The notes: generated by a model not told the origin, from the sequence alone. Counted from the first letter of the stretch, positions 22,411 to 26,721 are shown. The stretch: 64,000 bases of DNA from Theionarchaea archaeon (GCA_018992685.1 JACVGT010000008.1:3257-67256); one strand, 5' to 3'. Numbers and translations: made by a program.

Positions 22411-23460
22411 ATGAGTGTCCCTGATCTCATCGTGGTGCTTTTCCTCTTGATTGTTGTATATGACTGCTACTACTTTATCATCTTTCTTTACCAGAGTTTC
22501 AAGGCACCTGCCATTGAGTACTCCCCTCGCAGTTCTGTGATCATACCTGTGTACAACAATGAGTCCACCATCGGTCTGTGTGTACAGGCCGTTCTGGATT
22601 CTGATTACCTTCTTGAAGAGGTCATTGTGGTGAACGATGGATCTACTGACCGTACACACGATATTCTCCAGAACCTGACAGGCATAACAGTGTACAGCAT
22701 ACCACATTCAGGGAAAGCCGCTGCCCTCAACTACGGGATCGCTCACTCAAGAGGGGATGTTGTCACTCTTGATGCCGATACTACAGTCAGAAAAGACACA
22801 ATCAGAATGCTGGTCCGCAATTTGCAGCTCTATGATGCAGTGGCGGGTAACCTCCAGGTCTTCAATGCAAGAACATTCTTGGGGAGGTGCCAGGCTATTG
22901 AACACGTCAGGGTGGCCATGTTCAGAAAAGTGGCCCAGTACTTTGACGATGTTGATATTGTCCCAGGACCCATTGGAGCATTCAAACGAGAAGTGTTTTC
23001 GAAGGTCATCTACGGATCATCCATGGTGGAAGATATGGAGTTAACCCGTAACCTGAAACGGGAGGGGTTTACTGTGGGGTATGAACAGGAAGCAAAAGCC
23101 TACACCCAGATGCCTGACAAATGGATACCCTTTGTGAGGCAGCGCTTCAGATGGGCAAAGGGAAATCTGCATCTGTTGCTTGAGGGGAATGCACCCGTAA
23201 GGAAGTTCCTGATGGGGTATGGGCTATCCTCAGCAGATATAGTGCTGGTGATTCTGTGTTTCCTGTACGGGCAATATCTGGTCTTGGCCCTTTTTCTGGG
23301 GTTTGAATCTGTCACCATGATCATTGGAACTTACAGGGAAAAGGCCACCCTGTTTGTTGAATCACTGTTCTTCCCGGTGTTCATGCTTTTTCTGGACAGT
23401 ATATTCCTTTTATCTCATTTTGTGGGATTTTTTTCCATTCTTTGCCTACATCGATCTTAG
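22411..23460 (+). CDS. Family-2 glycosyltransferase with flanking TM segments
   Basis: 'SVIIPVYNNESTIGLCVQAVLDS...VIVVNDGSTDRT' (GT-A DxD region). N-terminal TM helix and C-terminal TM helices. Confidence 0.8.
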   Translation: MSVPDLIVVLFLLIVVYDCYYFIIFLYQSFKAPAIEYSPRSSVIIPVYNNESTIGLCVQAVLDSDYLLEEVIVVNDGSTDRTHDILQNLTGITVYSIPHSGKAAALNYGIAHSRGDVVTLDADTTVRKDTIRMLVRNLQLYDAVAGNLQVFNARTFLGRCQAIEHVRVAMFRKVAQYFDDVDIVPGPIGAFKREVFSKVIYGSSMVEDMELTRNLKREGFTVGYEQEAKAYTQMPDKWIPFVRQRFRWAKGNLHLLLEGNAPVRKFLMGYGLSSADIVLVILCFLYGQYLVLALFLGFESVTMIIGTYREKATLFVESLFFPVFMLFLDSIFLLSHFVGFFSILCLHRS

Positions 23461-24531
23461 ATATTCTTTTACAGAAGAACAGGCACCACATCTGACGCAG
23501 CCTGCCTTATTCTTGAAGGGATCTATTCCTGCTTCCATCATTTTTTTGGCTGCCCAAACAGAATACATCTGAACAACATCAAGAGATGGCAGGGGGTGAG
23601 ATTCCAGAACAGTTCCCGGGAGAGGTCTGAATGGAACAACAAAGGGGATCACACCGTGCTGTACCATGTTTTCAATGCCTGTCTTGGTTTTCCTTTCATC
23701 TTCTCCCAATCCCACCAGGATATAGGAACTGACCTGATTTTCGCCGAAAATATCTACAGCATCCTCCCATGCACGGCTGAATTCTGAAAAATTCTTTGAC
23801 GGACAGATTTTCTCAAACAATGTCTCATCCACAGTTTCAATGTGGATGCCAATGGTGTCTGCCCCCTGGTCTCTCAATAGTTCCTGATACGTCCTGGGTA
23901 CTGGCTCGAGCTGAGAATGAACAGGCAATCCTGTCCGCTTGAGAGCAGCAGCACACTCAGCCAGCATGAATGCTCCCCTGTCACTGGTATTGACAGTACC
24001 TGTGGTCAGGGTAACGTGAGAGGCACCTTCTTTCTTTGCTGCCTCTGCCACTTCCTCAAGTTGCTGAGGGGTTTTTTGCTGGATCGTTCCTCCATACTCC
24101 AGTGACCGTTCAATCCCGCAGAACCAGCAGGGCGCAGTCCTCCACCTGACGCATCTCTGGTATACCGTGGTGGCCAGACAATCCACACCATGCAGGAGTG
24201 CGATTTTCTTGTAGGGAACACCCTCTCGTGTGGTGAGATCATAGAAGTATGGATCTTTCACTACGTGAACTGGCAGCCTGTCCCGGAAAGTGCTTTCGGG
24301 ATTTCTGTCCACCAGAACACAGAGTTCATCTTCCTCTTCCAACCAGATATCAGAATCCATGGCAGCCCCATACACGAAACAGTTCACCACCATCTTCTCC
24401 ACCACCACATATCTTCCGCCTGCAGGGCCTGCCCCTCCCCTCCTTGCTGTTCTCATTAATTCTGGCACCCGCACTCCCTGACAGAGTAACCTGGTCTTCA
24501 AATCCGCACTATTCATGACACCACCTCTCAT
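23446..24531 (-). CDS. Fe-S enzyme, radical-SAM-like, with an atypical Cys motif
   Basis: 361 aa. 'RCVRWRTAPCWFCG' gives CX7CX2C spacing instead of CX3CX2C. A TIM-barrel-like 'ASHVTLTTG' follows, and 'GCVRCGAC' sits at the extreme C-terminus. Overlaps the upstream GNAT gene by 23 nt. Confidence 0.45.
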   Translation of the reverse strand: MRGGVMNSADLKTRLLCQGVRVPELMRTARRGGAGPAGGRYVVVEKMVVNCFVYGAAMDSDIWLEEEDELCVLVDRNPESTFRDRLPVHVVKDPYFYDLTTREGVPYKKIALLHGVDCLATTVYQRCVRWRTAPCWFCGIERSLEYGGTIQQKTPQQLEEVAEAAKKEGASHVTLTTGTVNTSDRGAFMLAECAAALKRTGLPVHSQLEPVPRTYQELLRDQGADTIGIHIETVDETLFEKICPSKNFSEFSRAWEDAVDIFGENQVSSYILVGLGEDERKTKTGIENMVQHGVIPFVVPFRPLPGTVLESHPLPSLDVVQMYSVWAAKKMMEAGIDPFKNKAGCVRCGACSSVKEYLRSM

Positions 24532-24979
24532 ACTTTTGAACCGTCATTCCCGGAGCCTGCTCAAAGACAGGCCCCTTCTTGGAGAAGCCATACTTCTCAA
24601 CCAGGCGGAGGCATCCCCTGTGACTGGTCAGGATATTGACGTAGTTTTTCCTACAGTGTTGATCATGAGCAAACTGTATAAACTGGCTGTACATGGCAGA
24701 AGCAATCCCTTGTCCCACATAGTCCGGGAGGATTGATTGATGCTCCCCGAAACACCCCTCCTCAGTTATCAGCAGCTTGTAGCAACCGACAATCTTCCCC
24801 CTATCTCTGGCCCCGAAGAACCGGAACCCTGATTGCATCTCCTGTTTGACTTTCTGACTGCTGATCTTACGCCTCTCTCTCCACGCTTCAGGATACTCAT
24901 GAGCACATGACCATACCTTCGTGAACAGGTCTTCCAGTTCTTCTGCATCTTCTTCTGTGAATTCTTCAATATTCTGCAC
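24509..24979 (-). CDS. GNAT-family N-acetyltransferase
   Basis: 156 aa. 'DYVGQGIASAMYSQFIQFA' is an acetyl-CoA-binding motif A-like segment. Confidence 0.75.
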   Translation of the reverse strand: MQNIEEFTEEDAEELEDLFTKVWSCAHEYPEAWRERRKISSQKVKQEMQSGFRFFGARDRGKIVGCYKLLITEEGCFGEHQSILPDYVGQGIASAMYSQFIQFAHDQHCRKNYVNILTSHRGCLRLVEKYGFSKKGPVFEQAPGMTVQKYERWCHE

Positions 24980-25054
24980 AGAGAAACATCATTCACCTCA
25001 TTTAAATAGGTGTGGATTCTGTACTCAGGGGATAGTAAAACGTGAGAAAACGGA

Positions 25055-25261
25055 GTGTTGAACGTGAGTAACCTTTATAAACAGCCTCTAGGAACACAGA
25101 GTATGGACATGAAACTCAGAGACATCGTACAGTGCCCAAAGTGTGGATTCCGATTCAGTAAATCATATTCCAGAATAACCAGTTGCAAAGGCTGTCCTCA
25201 ATCTGCGGGTCAATGTGGTCTGATCCGGTGCCCCAAATGCAGCAATGAATTCACCGGTTAG
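25055..25261 (+). CDS. Small zinc-ribbon protein. Probable start MDMKLRD (~52 aa).
   Basis: Three Cys pairs: CPKCG, CKGCP, CGLIRCPKC. Confidence 0.4.
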   Translation: MLNVSNLYKQPLGTQSMDMKLRDIVQCPKCGFRFSKSYSRITSCKGCPQSAGQCGLIRCPKCSNEFTG

Positions 25262-25394: not shown

Positions 25395-25898
25395 ATGGAA
25401 ATGGAGAATGAACTGCGCGAAGTAGGCGAAGGGTTACTCATCGCGGTTGTCATCTACCTTATCATTCAAGCCTCCTTGATGGTCACCCTGGGGGTGGAGA
25501 GACCCCTGTATGTCGTGATATCAGGAAGTATGGAACCCACCTTTTATGAGGGGGACATTCTGGTCGTCAAGAGGGCAGATCCTTACACGCTGGAAGAAGG
25601 GGACATTATCGTGTTTGAATCTCCTTCCGGAGGAATACCCATCGTTCACCGGGTGTTTGAAGTTGAAACTAAAGACGGGGTGCCATATTACATTACCAAG
25701 GGAGATCATAACAATAGCCTGGATATATATTATCAGTTCAGCTATCCCGGCGTTCCTCCTGAGCGTGTCATCGGAAAACCTGTTTTCAGGATACCCAAAC
25801 TGGGCTGGGCACAGATCAAGCTGCGGGAACTATTCGTGTTTTTGAGAACAAGATTCAGAGAGCTGGGTGAAGTGATACGATGTCCTCAGATAGTATGA
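25395..25898 (+). CDS. Signal peptidase I, archaeal/eukaryotic Sec11 type (S26B)
   Basis: N-terminal TM then 'VVISGSMEPTFYEGDILVV' (catalytic Ser region) and 'IVHRV'. 167 aa. Confidence 0.8.
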   Translation: MEMENELREVGEGLLIAVVIYLIIQASLMVTLGVERPLYVVISGSMEPTFYEGDILVVKRADPYTLEEGDIIVFESPSGGIPIVHRVFEVETKDGVPYYITKGDHNNSLDIYYQFSYPGVPPERVIGKPVFRIPKLGWAQIKLRELFVFLRTRFRELGEVIRCPQIV

Positions 25899-26317
25899 AG
25901 AAAAACCTTACAGACGTGGCCGTAGCGTTGTGCATTTTCCTGGTGATCCAGGGAGCGCTCTATGGAGTGCTGGGGGTGTTCCCTCCGTACAGGGTGGTGA
26001 GCTCGGGAAGTATGGAACCCACCTATTACGAGGGAGACATCGTGTTTATCAAGCATGTTGACCCTCACGAGCTGCAAGTAGGAGACATCATTGTCTTCAA
26101 TCCGAAAGGGGGAGGAATTCCCATTGTACACAGGGTCGCCGAGGTGGTAGAAGAAAATCAGACACGTTATTTTGTGACTCAGGGAGATCATAACGCGTTT
26201 CCTGATTCTTTTTATGCCCCACTTCCCGGTGTCCCAGAATCAGAAGTCGTTGGCACTCCGGTGCTGAAGATTCCCAAGATCGGGTACATCTCAGTGTTTT
26301 TCAGGAGACTGCTATGA
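25880..26317 (+). CDS. Signal peptidase I paralog (Sec11 type)
   Basis: 'VVSSGSMEPTYYEGDIVFIKH...IVHRV'. Tandem duplicate of the preceding gene with a 19-nt overlap. Confidence 0.8.
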   Translation: MSSDSMKKNLTDVAVALCIFLVIQGALYGVLGVFPPYRVVSSGSMEPTYYEGDIVFIKHVDPHELQVGDIIVFNPKGGGIPIVHRVAEVVEENQTRYFVTQGDHNAFPDSFYAPLPGVPESEVVGTPVLKIPKIGYISVFFRRLL

Positions 26318-26721
26318 GAGAGAAAAGGATAGCAGTGGCAGTCGATGGAGTTGTCATTGAGGGTGGACGCATTCTGCTCATCAGGAGAGGGAAGGATCCA
26401 TTCAGGGGATTCTGGGCCTTGCCTGGTGGGTTCGTGGAATATGGGGAATCCACAGAACATGCAGTAGTCAGGGAAGTGGAGGAGGAGACTGGACTTCTCT
26501 GCAGAATCGAGAGATTGCTGGGAGTCTATTCAGCCCCTGATCGGGATCCTCGGGGACACGTCATTTCTGTTGCCTATGTCTTGAGCGTCAAAGAGGAAAA
26601 GCCAACCCCAGGAGATGATTCAGCTGCTGCTACCTGGTTCAGTGCTGCTGAAGTGCCTGATAACATTGCTTTTGATCATCTGAATATCATTCGAGATGCT
26701 CTGACACTCAGGTCACTGTGA
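26314..26721 (+). CDS. Nudix hydrolase
   Basis: Nudix box 'GGFVEYGESTEHAVVREVEEETG'. 135 aa. ATGA overlap with the upstream gene. Confidence 0.85.
   Translation: MREKRIAVAVDGVVIEGGRILLIRRGKDPFRGFWALPGGFVEYGESTEHAVVREVEEETGLLCRIERLLGVYSAPDRDPRGHVISVAYVLSVKEEKPTPGDDSAAATWFSAAEVPDNIAFDHLNIIRDALTLRSL

What the first reader, a model, noticed from the sequence alone, without database searches (positions are those of the whole stretch)
23446..24979. GNAT acetyltransferase co-transcribed with an Fe-S (radical-SAM-like) enzyme carrying a non-canonical CX7CX2C motif
The GNAT gene overlaps the downstream 361-aa protein by 23 nt. That protein has a Cys triad 'CVRWRTAPCWFC' (CX7CX2C, with another Cys 9 residues upstream) in place of the canonical CX3CX2C. 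It also has a 'HVTLTTG' segment where radical-SAM enzymes usually have the GGEP-like SAM-binding strand, and a CxxCxxC at the extreme C-terminus.

The pairing echoes Elp3 (radical SAM plus KAT domain) and lysine 2,3-aminomutase plus beta-lysine acetyltransferase, but in reversed order and with atypical spacing. It may be an uncharacterised acetylation-coupled radical enzyme.
Basis: seen in the sequence. Interest (0 to 1): 0.55.

Follow-up and report, generated by a model that had tools for sequence, protein, structure and literature searches.

The report
Archaeal GNAT plus NitD-type radical-SAM pair
This is a real, translationally coupled two-gene unit from a Theionarchaea archaeon: an acetyltransferase followed by a radical-SAM enzyme of the already named but biochemically uncharacterised MSMEG_0568/NitD family, and it matters mainly because it looks like a stripped-down archaeal core of the 20-year-old unsolved bacterial "Nit1C" cluster.

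Summary
A 156-aa GNAT gene (24509-24979, minus strand) overlaps a 361-aa gene (23446-24531) that carries C127-x7-C135-x2-C138, HVTLTTG and a C-terminal CxxCxxC.

The large protein is not an orphan. It passes NCBIfam TIGR04043, "MSMEG_0568 family radical SAM protein" (322 bits, cutoff 304). It is 38% identical over its full length to NitD of the Klebsiella Nit1C cluster, and NCBI already gives it that name. AlphaFold (pLDDT 93.8) predicts a HydE/PylB/LipA/BioB-like radical-SAM barrel.

Across 231 relatives only two Cys triads are near-universal: C-x7-9-C-x2-C and the C-terminal CxxCxxC. I read this as a SAM-cleaving cluster plus an auxiliary cluster.

GNAT coupling is typical of the family, but the GNAT here belongs to a separate archaeal lineage with no detectable similarity to the bacterial MSMEG_0567 GNAT. 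Each GNAT type also occurs fused to the radical-SAM protein, at opposite ends.

The nitrilase, AIR-synthase-like and other Nit1C genes are absent from the window.

The function remains unknown. It most likely performs a radical transformation of a small amine substrate, coupled to N-acetylation in a complex.

Verdict: new variant of a known, uncharacterised kind; moderate interest.

The parts
24509..24979 (-). GNAT acetyltransferase gene (156 aa, GTG start). It belongs to an archaeal GNAT lineage that travels with this radical-SAM family.
   Evidence: - ORF.
- PF00583 at 40.7 bits.
- The identical protein is annotated 'GNAT family N-acetyltransferase [Theionarchaea archaeon]' (P0121).
- AF2 model has pLDDT 94.9 and a GNAT fold, TM 0.7-0.84 to PAT/ArsN, SpeG, PaiA and RimI.
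- Orthologues (phmmer E 1e-33 to 1e-81) lie next to the radical-SAM gene in 25 other loci.
- There is no hit to TIGR04045 and no BLASTP alignment to Klebsiella NitE.
23446..24531 (-). MSMEG_0568/NitD-family radical-SAM gene. The longest ORF is 361 aa. The probable true start is the ATG at 24516, giving 356 aa.
   Evidence: - TIGR04043 at 322.2 bits (cutoff 303.7), NF045502 'variant_rSAM' at 137.4 (cutoff 125), PF04055 at 52.7.
- P0001 is 100% identical and named 'MSMEG_0568 family radical SAM protein'.
- 38% identity over the full length to Klebsiella NitD.
- AF2 model pLDDT 93.8, pTM 0.92.
- Foldseek best matches are HydE (6e-10), PylB, LipA and BioB.
24509..24531 (-). Overlap of the GNAT 3' end with the radical-SAM 5' end. 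It is 23 nt with the longest ORF and 8 nt (24509-24516, ATGAATAG) with the annotated start. A GGTGGTG Shine-Dalgarno-like element lies just upstream of the ATG at 24516.
   Evidence: Sequence and length of P0001. The same overlapping or 4-nt-gap arrangement occurs in L001, L011, L014, L017, L018, L020, L022, L030, L055, L071, L073 and L081-L084.
24118..24153 (-). C127-x7-C135-x2-C138 (CVRWRTAPCWFC). These are the proposed ligands of the SAM-binding [4Fe-4S] cluster. F137 is the aromatic residue immediately before the last Cys.
   Evidence: - The motif lies in the loop between predicted strand b1 (118-122) and helix 140-145.
- C135 and C138 align with the 2nd and 3rd Cys of human LIAS CTRGCRFC.
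- Conserved 220/221, 221/222 and 223/223.
- Spacing is x7, x8 or x9 in different clades.
23479..23499 (-). C-terminal C345-x2-C348-x2-C351, the proposed three-Cys site for an auxiliary Fe-S cluster.
   Evidence: Present in 198/200 sequences and about 97-98% of 231 aligned relatives, including bacterial NitD. It sits on a short helix at 345-348 in the model.
23998..24018 (-). HVTLTTG (residues 172-178), strand b2 of the barrel, at the position of the GGE-type SAM-binding strand.
   Evidence: DSSP strand 172-176. It aligns with LIAS 'YVVLTSvDRDD'. T176, G178 and T179 are invariant.
24202..24531 (-). Family-specific N-terminal domain (about residues 1-110: one helix plus five strands) with the invariant glycine-rich motif GAGPAGG (residues 33-39).
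   Evidence: Secondary structure. Invariant K12, L16, G19, G33, A34, G35 and G38. The motif is present in bacterial NitD as GGAGPS. This region is not covered by the PDB fold matches, which align about 245 columns.
25000..25008 (-). TATTTAAAT, a candidate archaeal TATA box about 25 nt upstream of the GNAT GTG start. This would imply a leaderless or near-leaderless transcript.
   Evidence: Read from the sequence. This is inference only; no transcript data are available.
22411..23460 (+). Convergent membrane GT2 glycosyltransferase (349 aa, PgaC/NodC-like, QRFRW motif). Its 3' end overlaps the radical-SAM 3' end by 15 nt. It is a conserved neighbour in this clade and a possible functional partner.
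   Evidence: - PF00535 at 106.5 bits; TIGR03937 PgaC_IcaA at 135 bits, below its cutoff.
- The same convergent, overlapping GT2 occurs in L001, L081, L082, L083 and L084, although the outer flanks differ.
- Similarity to GT2 genes in other lineages is only generic.

Best explanation
**Proposal.** The two genes form one translationally coupled operon, and the two proteins work together, probably as a complex.

**The radical-SAM protein.** It belongs to the MSMEG_0568/NitD family of the BioB/LipA/HydE/PylB-like branch.
- C127, C135 and C138 sit in the b1-a1 loop. The first Cys is displaced by a 7-9-residue insertion. These three are proposed to hold the [4Fe-4S] cluster that reductively cleaves SAM to a 5'-deoxyadenosyl radical.
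- C345, C348 and C351 are proposed to hold a second cluster with one non-Cys-ligated iron. That iron would bind the substrate or donate sulfur.
- The radical abstracts a hydrogen from a small amine or amino-acid-type metabolite.

**The GNAT.** It uses acetyl-CoA to N-acetylate that substrate or product. The purpose would be either to prepare the substrate or to trap the product.

**In related archaea.** A PurM/HypE-like ATP-dependent enzyme adds a third step.

**Shown versus inferred.**
- Shown: family membership, fold, Cys conservation, gene coupling and the fusions.
- Inferred: cluster assignment, complex formation, the class of substrate and the order of the steps.
- Unknown: the actual reaction.
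For: **Membership.**
- TIGR04043 at 322 bits against a cutoff of 304, NF045502 and PF04055.
- NCBI's own name for the identical protein.
- 38% full-length identity to NitD inside an annotated Nit1C cluster.

**Fold.** AF2 pLDDT 93.8 with a b1-loop-a1 element followed by five further b/a units. Best PDB matches are HydE, PylB, LipA, BioB, LIAS, ThiH and HydG.

**Clusters.**
- Only C127/C135/C138 and C345/C348/C351 are near-universal in 231 relatives. C17, C118 and C243 vary.
- C135 and C138 align with the LIAS radical-SAM Cys residues.
- An aromatic residue (F137) precedes the last Cys, and a BioB-like VGLGE motif is present.

**Coupling to the GNAT.**
- The genes overlap.
- 29 of the 49 loci with the non-canonical motif have a GNAT adjacent or fused. 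This spans Theionarchaea, Thermoplasmata, Bathyarchaeia, several Asgard lineages and bacteria.
- P0195 is an archaeal-type GNAT fused N-terminally to the radical-SAM protein.
- At least six cluster representatives, plus L077, are radical-SAM proteins fused C-terminally to an MSMEG_0567-type GNAT.

**GNAT chemistry.** It has a standard small-molecule GNAT fold. The b4-a3 loop carries the nearly invariant G91-x-A93 at the usual acetyl-CoA pyrophosphate-binding position.

**AIR-synthase-like third partner.** Present in 16 loci.
Against: - No biochemical data exist for any family member, so the substrate and reaction are guesses.
- I could not obtain model coordinates. The spatial clustering of each Cys triad was therefore not measured and rests on sequence position and homology.
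- 36 Asgard homologues also carry a canonical Cys (C-x4-C-x3-C-x2-C). C127 could therefore have a role other than ligating the SAM cluster.
- The GNAT is not an orthologue of the bacterial cluster's GNAT. The archaeal and bacterial modules may therefore not perform the same chemistry.
- The nitrilase, Sll0783-like, MSMEG_0570 and AIR-synthase-like genes are absent from the 64-kb window.
- 20 of the 49 loci with the non-canonical motif show no GNAT nearby. Some of these are truncated contigs.
Confidence: 0.72

Rival explanations
1. **Elp3-like chemistry.** The GNAT does not N-acetylate anything. It presents acetyl-CoA to the radical-SAM active site. The 5'-deoxyadenosyl radical abstracts a hydrogen from the acetyl methyl group, and the resulting radical forms a C-C bond (carboxymethylation or acetylation at carbon) on a third substrate.
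For: - The radical-SAM and GNAT proteins are repeatedly fused into one polypeptide. The radical-SAM-then-GNAT order seen in L077 and P0173/P0174/P0188/P0202 matches the domain order of Elp3.
- Two unrelated GNAT lineages have been recruited to the same radical-SAM family. This shows that acetyl-CoA binding is obligatorily tied to the radical step.
- An NDP-forming acyl-CoA-synthetase-like gene is a recurrent neighbour where no GNAT is present.
Against: - No Elp3 model or structure appears among the matches. The radical-SAM domain belongs to the BioB/HydE/LipA branch.
- The GNAT's nearest folds are ordinary small-molecule N-acetyltransferases.
- Independent recruitment of two GNAT lineages at opposite termini is more easily explained by generic N-acetylation than by a geometry-critical radical relay.
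Confidence: 0.1
2. **Sulfur-inserting cofactor enzyme.** The protein is a BioB-, LipA- or LipS2-type enzyme, for example an archaeal lipoyl or biotin synthase subunit. The C-terminal cluster is the sacrificial sulfur donor, and the GNAT is an unrelated neighbour.
For: - The nearest characterised sequence and fold relatives are LipS2 (52.8 bits), LipA, BioB and LIAS.
- A three-Cys auxiliary site is present.
- The bacterial cluster includes a DsrE/YchN-like protein, the Sll0783 family.
Against: - All these models score far below their cutoffs: LipS2 52.8 against 270, LipA 27.8 against 310, BioB 23.9 against 225.
- The LipA N-terminal CX4CX5C motif and the BioB cluster ligands are not present.
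- The GNAT link is conserved and occurs as fusions, so the GNAT is not an unrelated neighbour.
- Sulfur insertion into some other substrate is still compatible with the best explanation.
Confidence: 0.08
3. **Same pathway as bacterial Nit1C.** The pair performs the same steps as NitD/NitE in bacterial Nit1C (nitrile or cyanide nitrogen assimilation). The nitrilase, AIR-synthase-like and other genes would be encoded elsewhere in the genome.
For: - The protein passes the TIGR04043 cutoff and is 38% identical to NitD.
- Related archaea keep the AIR-synthase-like partner.
- Nit1C is required for growth on cyanide in Pseudomonas (PMC6368324) and is nitrogen-starvation-induced in Synechocystis (family names).
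Against: - The window holds no nitrilase, Sll0783, MSMEG_0570 or AIR-synthase-like gene.
- None of the archaeal loci inspected shows a nitrilase next to the module.
- The GNAT is not orthologous to NitE.
- In archaea the module sits among housekeeping genes.
Confidence: 0.1

Closest known systems
NitD / MSMEG_0568 / Sll0785 radical-SAM protein of the Nit1C (MSMEG_0565-0572, sll0783-0787) cluster (NCBIfam TIGR04043)
   Same: - Passes the family HMM cutoff and is 38% identical over the full length.
- Same N-terminal GAGPAGG domain.
- Same displaced first Cys (x7-x9), same C-terminal CxxCxxC and same barrel.
- Genetically tied to a GNAT, and in related archaea to an AIR-synthase-like protein.
   Different: - Archaeal host.
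- No nitrilase, Sll0783-, MSMEG_0570- or FAD-oxidoreductase genes nearby.
- Gene order is GNAT then radical-SAM instead of radical-SAM then GNAT.
- The GNAT partner belongs to a different lineage.
- Spacing is x7 instead of x8/x9.
- It carries extra Cys residues (C17, C118, C243) that Klebsiella NitD lacks.
NitE / MSMEG_0567 / Sll0786 'nitrogen starvation N-acetyltransferase' (TIGR04045)
   Same: It is a GNAT-superfamily protein encoded next to, or fused with, the same radical-SAM family.
   Different: - No detectable specific similarity: no TIGR04045 hit, 2.9 bits against the archaeal GNAT profile, and no BLASTP alignment at E<=100.
- When fused it sits at the opposite end of the radical-SAM protein.
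HydE, PylB, LipA/LIAS, BioB, ThiH, HydG, HmdB (BioB-like branch of the radical-SAM superfamily)
   Same: - Best structural matches (Foldseek E 6e-10 to 1e-5) and weak HMM matches.
- VGLGE motif.
- An auxiliary Fe-S site, as in several of these enzymes.
- HmdB likewise has a widened first spacing (CX5CX2C, from my own knowledge).
   Different: - About 20% identity, and all family cutoffs are missed by a wide margin.
- An extra 110-residue N-terminal domain.
- A different position and type of auxiliary Cys motif.
Elp3 (radical-SAM plus KAT/GNAT in one polypeptide)
   Same: It combines a radical-SAM domain with an acetyl-CoA-binding GNAT. The bacterial fusions have the same domain order.
   Different: No sequence or fold match to Elp3 was found. 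The radical-SAM domains come from different branches of the superfamily. This is an analogy only.
Lysine 2,3-aminomutase AblA plus beta-lysine acetyltransferase AblB (archaeal osmolyte pathway)
   Same: It is a two-gene radical-SAM plus GNAT operon in archaea that acts on a small amine metabolite. This is the pattern I consider most likely here.
   Different: No KamA-family model matched and no KamA structure is in the top 50 fold matches. The Cys motifs and auxiliary site differ.

Membership tests
Radical SAM superfamily (PF04055) | Pfam HMM score above the gathering threshold | tested here: met
   52.7 bits against 29.5, residues 135-280.
Radical SAM superfamily (PF04055) | Three conserved Cys in the loop after strand b1 (canonical CX3CX2C), with an aromatic residue before the last Cys | tested here: met
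   - Met with variant spacing: C127-x7-C135-W-F137-C138 lies in the loop between b1 (118-122) and helix 140-145.
- Conserved in at least 220 of about 222 relatives.
- C135 and C138 align with the LIAS radical-SAM Cys residues.
- The canonical x3 Cys is absent here.
Radical SAM superfamily (PF04055) | Partial or full (beta/alpha) TIM-barrel fold | tested here: met
   AF2 pLDDT 93.8 with six b/a units. Foldseek prob 1.00 to HydE, PylB, LipA and BioB.
Radical SAM superfamily (PF04055) | The three Cys are spatially clustered above a SAM pocket; [4Fe-4S] binding and reductive SAM cleavage | not testable with these tools
   Model coordinates are not exposed, so no Sγ-Sγ distances could be measured. 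No biochemistry was possible.
MSMEG_0568 / NitD family (TIGR04043) | NCBIfam HMM score above the curated cutoff | tested here: met
   322.2 bits against 303.7, residues 15-357 matching model positions 3-353 of 354. The identical protein is named this way by NCBI.
MSMEG_0568 / NitD family (TIGR04043) | Family signature residues: N-terminal GAGPAGG-type motif, displaced first Cys, C-terminal AGCxRCGACS | tested here: met
   All are present here and in Klebsiella NitD.
MSMEG_0568 / NitD family (TIGR04043) | Located in the conserved Nit1C / MSMEG_0565-0572 cluster (Sll0783-like, Nit6803 nitrilase, MSMEG_0567 GNAT, sll0787 AIR-synthase-like, MSMEG_0570, flavoprotein) | tested here: not met
   Only a non-orthologous GNAT is adjacent. 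A six-frame HMM search finds no AIR-synthase-like gene in the 64 kb. The neighbours are GT2, Lrp/AsnC, MFS, S26 peptidases and NUDIX. Compare the canonical cluster in L086.
MSMEG_0567 / Sll0786 GNAT (TIGR04045) | HMM score above the cutoff (68.45 bits) | tested here: not met
   - The window GNAT gives no hit at E<=0.01.
- The archaeal orthologues L006 and L020 give none either.
- No BLASTP alignment to Klebsiella NitE.
GNAT superfamily (PF00583) | Pfam score above threshold, GNAT fold, and a b4-a3 pyrophosphate-binding loop (R/Q-x-x-G-x-G/A) | tested here: met
   - 40.7 bits against 20.7.
- AF2 pLDDT 94.9 with TM up to 0.84 to solved GNATs.
- G91-I-A93 lies after strand 76-83 and is nearly invariant.
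- The first position is V here and R in most orthologues.
Elp3 | Elp3-type radical-SAM domain and KAT domain recognisable by sequence or fold | tested here: not met
   No Elp3 family appears in the NCBIfam or Pfam output. There is no Elp3 chain in the PDB sequence search or in the top 50 fold matches.
Lysine 2,3-aminomutase (KamA/AblA) | KamA-family HMM or fold match | tested here: not met
   There is no KamA model at E<=0.01 and no KamA structure in the top 50. PLP binding was not tested.
Lipoyl synthase LipA / LipS2, biotin synthase BioB | Equivalog HMM score above the cutoff | tested here: not met
   LipS2 52.8 against 270, LipA 27.8 against 310, BioB 23.9 against 225.

The most novel reading that the evidence does not exclude
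The archaeal GNAT/radical-SAM pair (with its fused forms) could be a second, independently evolved Elp3-like machine. In that reading acetyl-CoA held by the GNAT is itself the radical substrate. The module would be the ancient catalytic core of Nit1C and would build a carbon-carbon bond on a still unknown metabolite or macromolecule. Two unrelated GNAT lineages would have converged on the same radical-SAM scaffold.
Probability: 0.1. Interest if true: 0.8.

Novelty: new variant of a known kind. Interest (0 to 1): 0.38.

Why it matters
**The open problem.** The Nit1C / MSMEG_0565-0572 / sll0783-0787 cluster has been known since 2005. It is essential for cyanide assimilation in Pseudomonas and is nitrogen-starvation-induced in cyanobacteria and mycobacteria. 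It also sits on Klebsiella virulence plasmids: 373 of the 517 plasmid records matching the radical-SAM protein are Klebsiella. The reactions of its radical-SAM, GNAT and AIR-synthase-like proteins remain unknown.

**What this locus and its relatives add.**
- The radical-SAM/GNAT pair, with or without the AIR-synthase-like protein, exists without a nitrilase. It is found across Theionarchaea, Thermoplasmata, Bathyarchaeia and several Asgard lineages.
- Two unrelated GNAT lineages were recruited to the same radical-SAM family.
- Both pairings have been fused into single proteins.

**Why that helps.** The unknown chemistry is reduced to a minimal two-protein, or single-polypeptide, system that can be expressed and assayed. 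The nitrilase is recast as a bacterial add-on.

**Limits.** The finding does not overturn anything, and the enzyme class was already named.

Tried and rejected
- **Other Nit1C genes in the window.** A six-frame HMM search with the AIR-synthase-like profile found nothing. Pfam and NCBIfam annotation of the neighbours showed no nitrilase, DsrE-like or MSMEG_0570 gene.
- **Orthology of the GNAT with NitE.** Rejected.
- **A solved structure of the family.** None exists. The best PDB sequence hit is LIAS at E=1e-3.
- **Literature on the family's function.** There were no hits for MSMEG_0568. Searches for sll0785/NitD/TIGR04043 were noisy and uninformative. The Nit1C papers list NitD/E/F only as induced proteins. 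Nothing useful was found on 'methanogenesis marker 2'.
- **GT2 link beyond this clade.** Similarity to Asgard GT2 genes three genes away is only superfamily-level (E about 1e-19). A family-wide GT2 link was therefore not accepted.
- **Further recurrent neighbours of the archaeal module.** The flanks are unrelated housekeeping genes: RACo, ABC exporters, Topo VI and DUF362.
- **C17/C243 as an extra conserved pair.** They co-occur only loosely and are missing in the bacteria, so they are not treated as core ligands.


Full report
**1. The observation**

One search lists two same-strand ORFs. One is at 24509..24979 (-, GTG start, 156 aa) and the other at 23446..24531 (-, 361 aa). They overlap by 23 nt.

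The identical large protein is in NCBI as a 356-aa product (P0001). It begins at the second ATG (24516, MNSADL...), which follows a GGTGGTG element. The real overlap is therefore probably the 8-nt ATGAATAG. Either way the genes are translationally coupled.

- C127-VRWRTAP-C135-WF-C138.
- C118, nine positions upstream of C127.
- HVTLTTG at residues 172-178.
- C345-x2-C348-x2-C351, ten residues from the end.

The window comes from a Theionarchaea (Methanofastidiosia) MAG. Both proteins have 100% matches named from 'Theionarchaea archaeon' on a 131-kb contig.

**2. What the large protein is**

Sequence evidence:
- It matches PF04055 at 52.7 bits (cutoff 29.5).
- It matches NCBIfam TIGR04043, 'MSMEG_0568 family radical SAM protein', at 322.2 bits (cutoff 303.7).
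- It matches NF045502, 'variant_rSAM', at 137 bits (cutoff 125).
- All characterised equivalogs fall far below their cutoffs: LipS2 52.8/270, HmdB 39.5/321, LipA 27.8/310, PylB, BioB and ThiH.
- No solved structure is close in sequence. The best is human LIAS at E=1e-3. That alignment places C135 and C138 on the second and third Cys of the LIAS CTRGCRFC motif, and places HVTLTTG on the LIAS b2 strand.

Structural evidence:
- An AlphaFold model built on 70 homologues is confident (pLDDT 93.8, pTM 0.92).
- It shows an N-terminal 110-residue domain of one helix and five strands.
- Strand b1 (118-122) follows, then a 17-residue loop carrying the three Cys, then helix 140-145.
- Five further b/a units follow: b2 172-176, b3 204-208, b4 224-229, b5 267-273, b6 295-300.
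- The model ends with a long helix and a short C-terminal helix bearing the CxxCxxC motif.
- Foldseek against the PDB returns HydE (6e-10), PylB, M. tuberculosis LipA, BioB, LIAS, ThiH and HydG.

I could not obtain coordinates, so I could not measure whether each Cys triad is spatially clustered. That part of the test remains open.

**3. The cysteines across the family**

- The family is large: 3256 homologues at E<=1e-5 in the 90% clusters, and 469 representatives at 50% identity with E<=1e-30.
- In 231 aligned sequences only two triads are near-universal:
  - C127 (220/221), C135 (221/222) and C138 (223/223).
  - C345, C348 and C351 (about 97-98%).
- C17, C118 and C243 are invariant among the closest 70 archaeal sequences. 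They are variable family-wide and absent from Klebsiella NitD.
- The first spacing is x8 in most sequences (127 of about 200). It is x7 in the Theionarchaea-like clade plus three Asgard sequences (32 in all), and x9 in Klebsiella.
- F137, the aromatic residue before the last Cys, and a BioB-type VGLGE motif (273-277) are conserved.

The simplest reading is one SAM-binding [4Fe-4S] cluster on C127/C135/C138 and one auxiliary cluster on C345/C348/C351 with a free or non-Cys-ligated iron.

There is one complication. 36 Asgard homologues have C-x4-C-x3-C-x2-C. That is the family Cys plus a canonical x3 Cys. Which Cys ligates the cluster in those proteins is ambiguous, and whether C127 has a second role is unresolved.

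Variant spacings such as CX7CX2C and CX8CX2C are already listed for radical-SAM megaclusters by RadicalSAM.org (PMC9477430).

**4. The acetyltransferase and the coupling**

The 156-aa protein is a clear GNAT:
- PF00583 at 40.7 bits.
- AF2 pLDDT 94.9.
- TM 0.7-0.84 to phosphinothricin/ArsN, SpeG, PaiA and RimI-type enzymes.

Its orthologues form a tight family with the motifs EYPExWR, FGEHQS and FEQxxGMxVQxYE.

I surveyed 86 loci: the window, 80 species-representative genome loci and 5 further contigs. One of the 80 genome loci gave no radical-SAM ORF; the canonical Klebsiella Nit1C locus L086 is counted among the 86.

Of these, 49 carry only the non-canonical motif, and 29 of those 49 have a GNAT adjacent or fused:
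- In 16 loci the archaeal-type GNAT lies directly upstream, overlapping or 4 nt away. These include the Theionarchaea-like clade, Bathyarchaeia, Sif-, Borr-, Baldr- and Odinarchaeota.
- In 9 Thermoplasmata loci it lies two genes downstream, in the order radical-SAM, AIR-synthase-like, GNAT.
- In 2 bacterial loci an MSMEG_0567-type GNAT lies directly downstream.
- 2 loci are fusions.

The fusions are informative:
- L077 and at least six 50%-identity representatives (P0173, P0174, P0188, P0202, P0221, P0246) are radical-SAM proteins with a C-terminal TIGR04045 GNAT.
- P0195 is the archaeal-type GNAT (179 bits to its profile) fused N-terminally to the radical-SAM domain.

In both cases the domain order mirrors the gene order.

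The two GNAT lineages show no specific similarity: 2.9 bits profile against sequence, no TIGR04045 hit, and no BLASTP alignment at E<=100. An acetyl-CoA-dependent step is thus tied to this radical-SAM enzyme in two independent ways. That argues strongly for a shared pathway and probably a physical complex.

None of the 36 Asgard loci with the added canonical Cys has a GNAT or AIR-synthase-like neighbour. That subclade may do something different.

**5. Relation to what is known**

The canonical arrangement is seen on Klebsiella plasmid pVP-JS4 (L086), in this gene order:
1. Sll0783-family protein.
2. Nit6803 nitrilase.
3. MSMEG_0568 radical SAM.
4. MSMEG_0567 GNAT.
5. sll0787 AIR-synthase-like.
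6. MSMEG_0570.

This is the Nit1C cluster of Podar et al. 2005 (PMC1199592). That paper noted that the Nit1C radical-SAM genes are closest to archaeal and bacterial 'biotin synthase-related' genes, and that no function was known.

Later work shows the cluster is required for cyanide assimilation in Pseudomonas pseudoalcaligenes. NitD/E/F appear only as induced proteins (PMC6368324, PMC8567248). I found no biochemical characterisation.

The window protein is 38% identical to Klebsiella NitD over its full length. The window lacks every other Nit1C gene.

The AIR-synthase-like partner in other archaea scores best to 'methanogenesis marker 2' and to sll0787. Both scores are below cutoff.

This locus is therefore a sequence-level member of the NitD family in a reduced, rearranged archaeal context with a non-orthologous GNAT. 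It is not a member of the Elp3, KamA, LipA/LipS2 or BioB families.

**6. Additional context**

In the six loci of the Theionarchaea-like clade (window, L001, L081-L084; radical-SAM identity down to about 60%), a membrane GT2 is always convergent. It is PgaC/NodC-like with a QRFRW motif, and it overlaps the 3' end of the radical-SAM gene. The outer flanks differ between these loci. This suggests a clade-specific third partner.

The bacterial clusters sometimes carry an unrelated glycosyltransferase. I did not accept a family-wide GT link.

Elsewhere the archaeal module is flanked by unrelated housekeeping genes.

**7. Mechanism and confidence**

Confidence in each step:
- About 0.9 or higher: a genuine radical-SAM enzyme of the NitD family, co-expressed with and functionally tied to the GNAT.
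- About 0.7: C127/C135/C138 is the SAM cluster and C345/C348/C351 is an auxiliary cluster.
- About 0.5: the pair acts on a small amine or amino-acid-like metabolite, with N-acetylation before or after the radical step, in a complex. The AblA/AblB pattern is the best analogy for how it works.

Rival explanations:
- An Elp3-like use of acetyl-CoA as the radical substrate (about 0.1).
- A LipA/BioB-type cofactor sulfur insertion with an irrelevant GNAT (about 0.08).
- Identity with the bacterial Nit1C pathway, with the missing genes located elsewhere in the genome (about 0.1).

**8. Verdict**

- What is new is the archaeal minimal module, the second GNAT lineage, the two fusion orientations and the clade-specific GT2.
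- Novelty: new variant of a known kind.
- Interest: 0.38. It is useful as a tractable entry point to an old open question, but not surprising to a radical-SAM specialist.

Noticed in passing
window 25103-25261 (+); also L001 2464-2667, L081 6173-6358, L084 3296-3493: A small Cys-rich zinc-ribbon-like ORF of about 52 aa (MDMKLRDIVQCPKCGFRFSKSYSRITSCKGCPQSAGQCGLIRCPKCSNEFTG) is divergently transcribed upstream of the GNAT. It is 71-85% conserved in three related loci, and stop codons upstream of the Met confirm the short form. It has no Pfam or NCBIfam hit. It could be a metal-binding or electron-transfer partner, or simply conserved synteny.
   Followed up: partly
window 22411-23460 (+): A membrane GT2 glycosyltransferase (PgaC/NodC-like, QRFRW motif) is convergent with the radical-SAM gene and overlaps its 3' end by 15 nt. 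The same arrangement is kept in L001 and L081-L084 while the outer flanks change.
   Followed up: partly
L015, L019, L024, L028, L033, L035-L041, L043-L049, L051, L052, L056-L058, L060-L064, L067-L070, L072, L079, L080: 36 Asgard (mostly Promethearchaeota) homologues carry C-x4-C-x3-C-x2-C, which is a canonical CX3CX2C plus the family-specific upstream Cys. None of them has a GNAT or AIR-synthase-like neighbour. They sit next to ribosomal protein uL16 and methylmalonyl-CoA mutase/MeaB genes instead.
   Followed up: partly
L011 4045-5463; L012, L013, L016, L025, L046, L061 (gene directly downstream of the radical-SAM gene): An NDP-forming acyl-CoA-synthetase-like protein (CoA_binding + Succ_CoA_lig, about 450 aa) lies immediately downstream of the radical-SAM gene in Bathyarchaeia, Jord-/Freyarchaeota and some Promethearchaeota. 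In many other Asgard loci it lies 2-5 genes upstream. This is a possible alternative link to acyl-CoA.
   Followed up: partly
L002-L010, L020, L022, L031, L034 (gene next to the radical-SAM gene): The archaeal AIR-synthase-like partner scores higher to 'methanogenesis marker 2' (TIGR03267, up to 323 bits, cutoff 365) than to sll0787 (TIGR04049). This hints that an unexplained methanogen marker protein is a relative of the Nit1C NitF protein.
   Followed up: no
P0298 (937 aa): A 937-aa protein joins an N-terminal RaSEA-like (archaeosine biosynthesis) radical-SAM region to a C-terminal variant_rSAM/MSMEG_0568-like domain.
   Followed up: no
window 25395-25898 and 25880-26317 (+): Two tandem, overlapping S26 signal-peptidase paralogues are followed by a NUDIX gene at 26314-26721. 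This block is syntenic in L081 and L084.
   Followed up: no
L084 6823-10789: Three consecutive radical-SAM/SPASM genes with small ORFs, resembling a RiPP-like cluster, lie just beyond the GT2 in one relative.
   Followed up: no
plasmid collection: Nit1C-type radical-SAM genes occur on 517 plasmid records. 373 of these are Klebsiella, mostly non-mobilizable IncFIB/IncHI1B virulence-type plasmids such as pVP-JS4.
   Followed up: no
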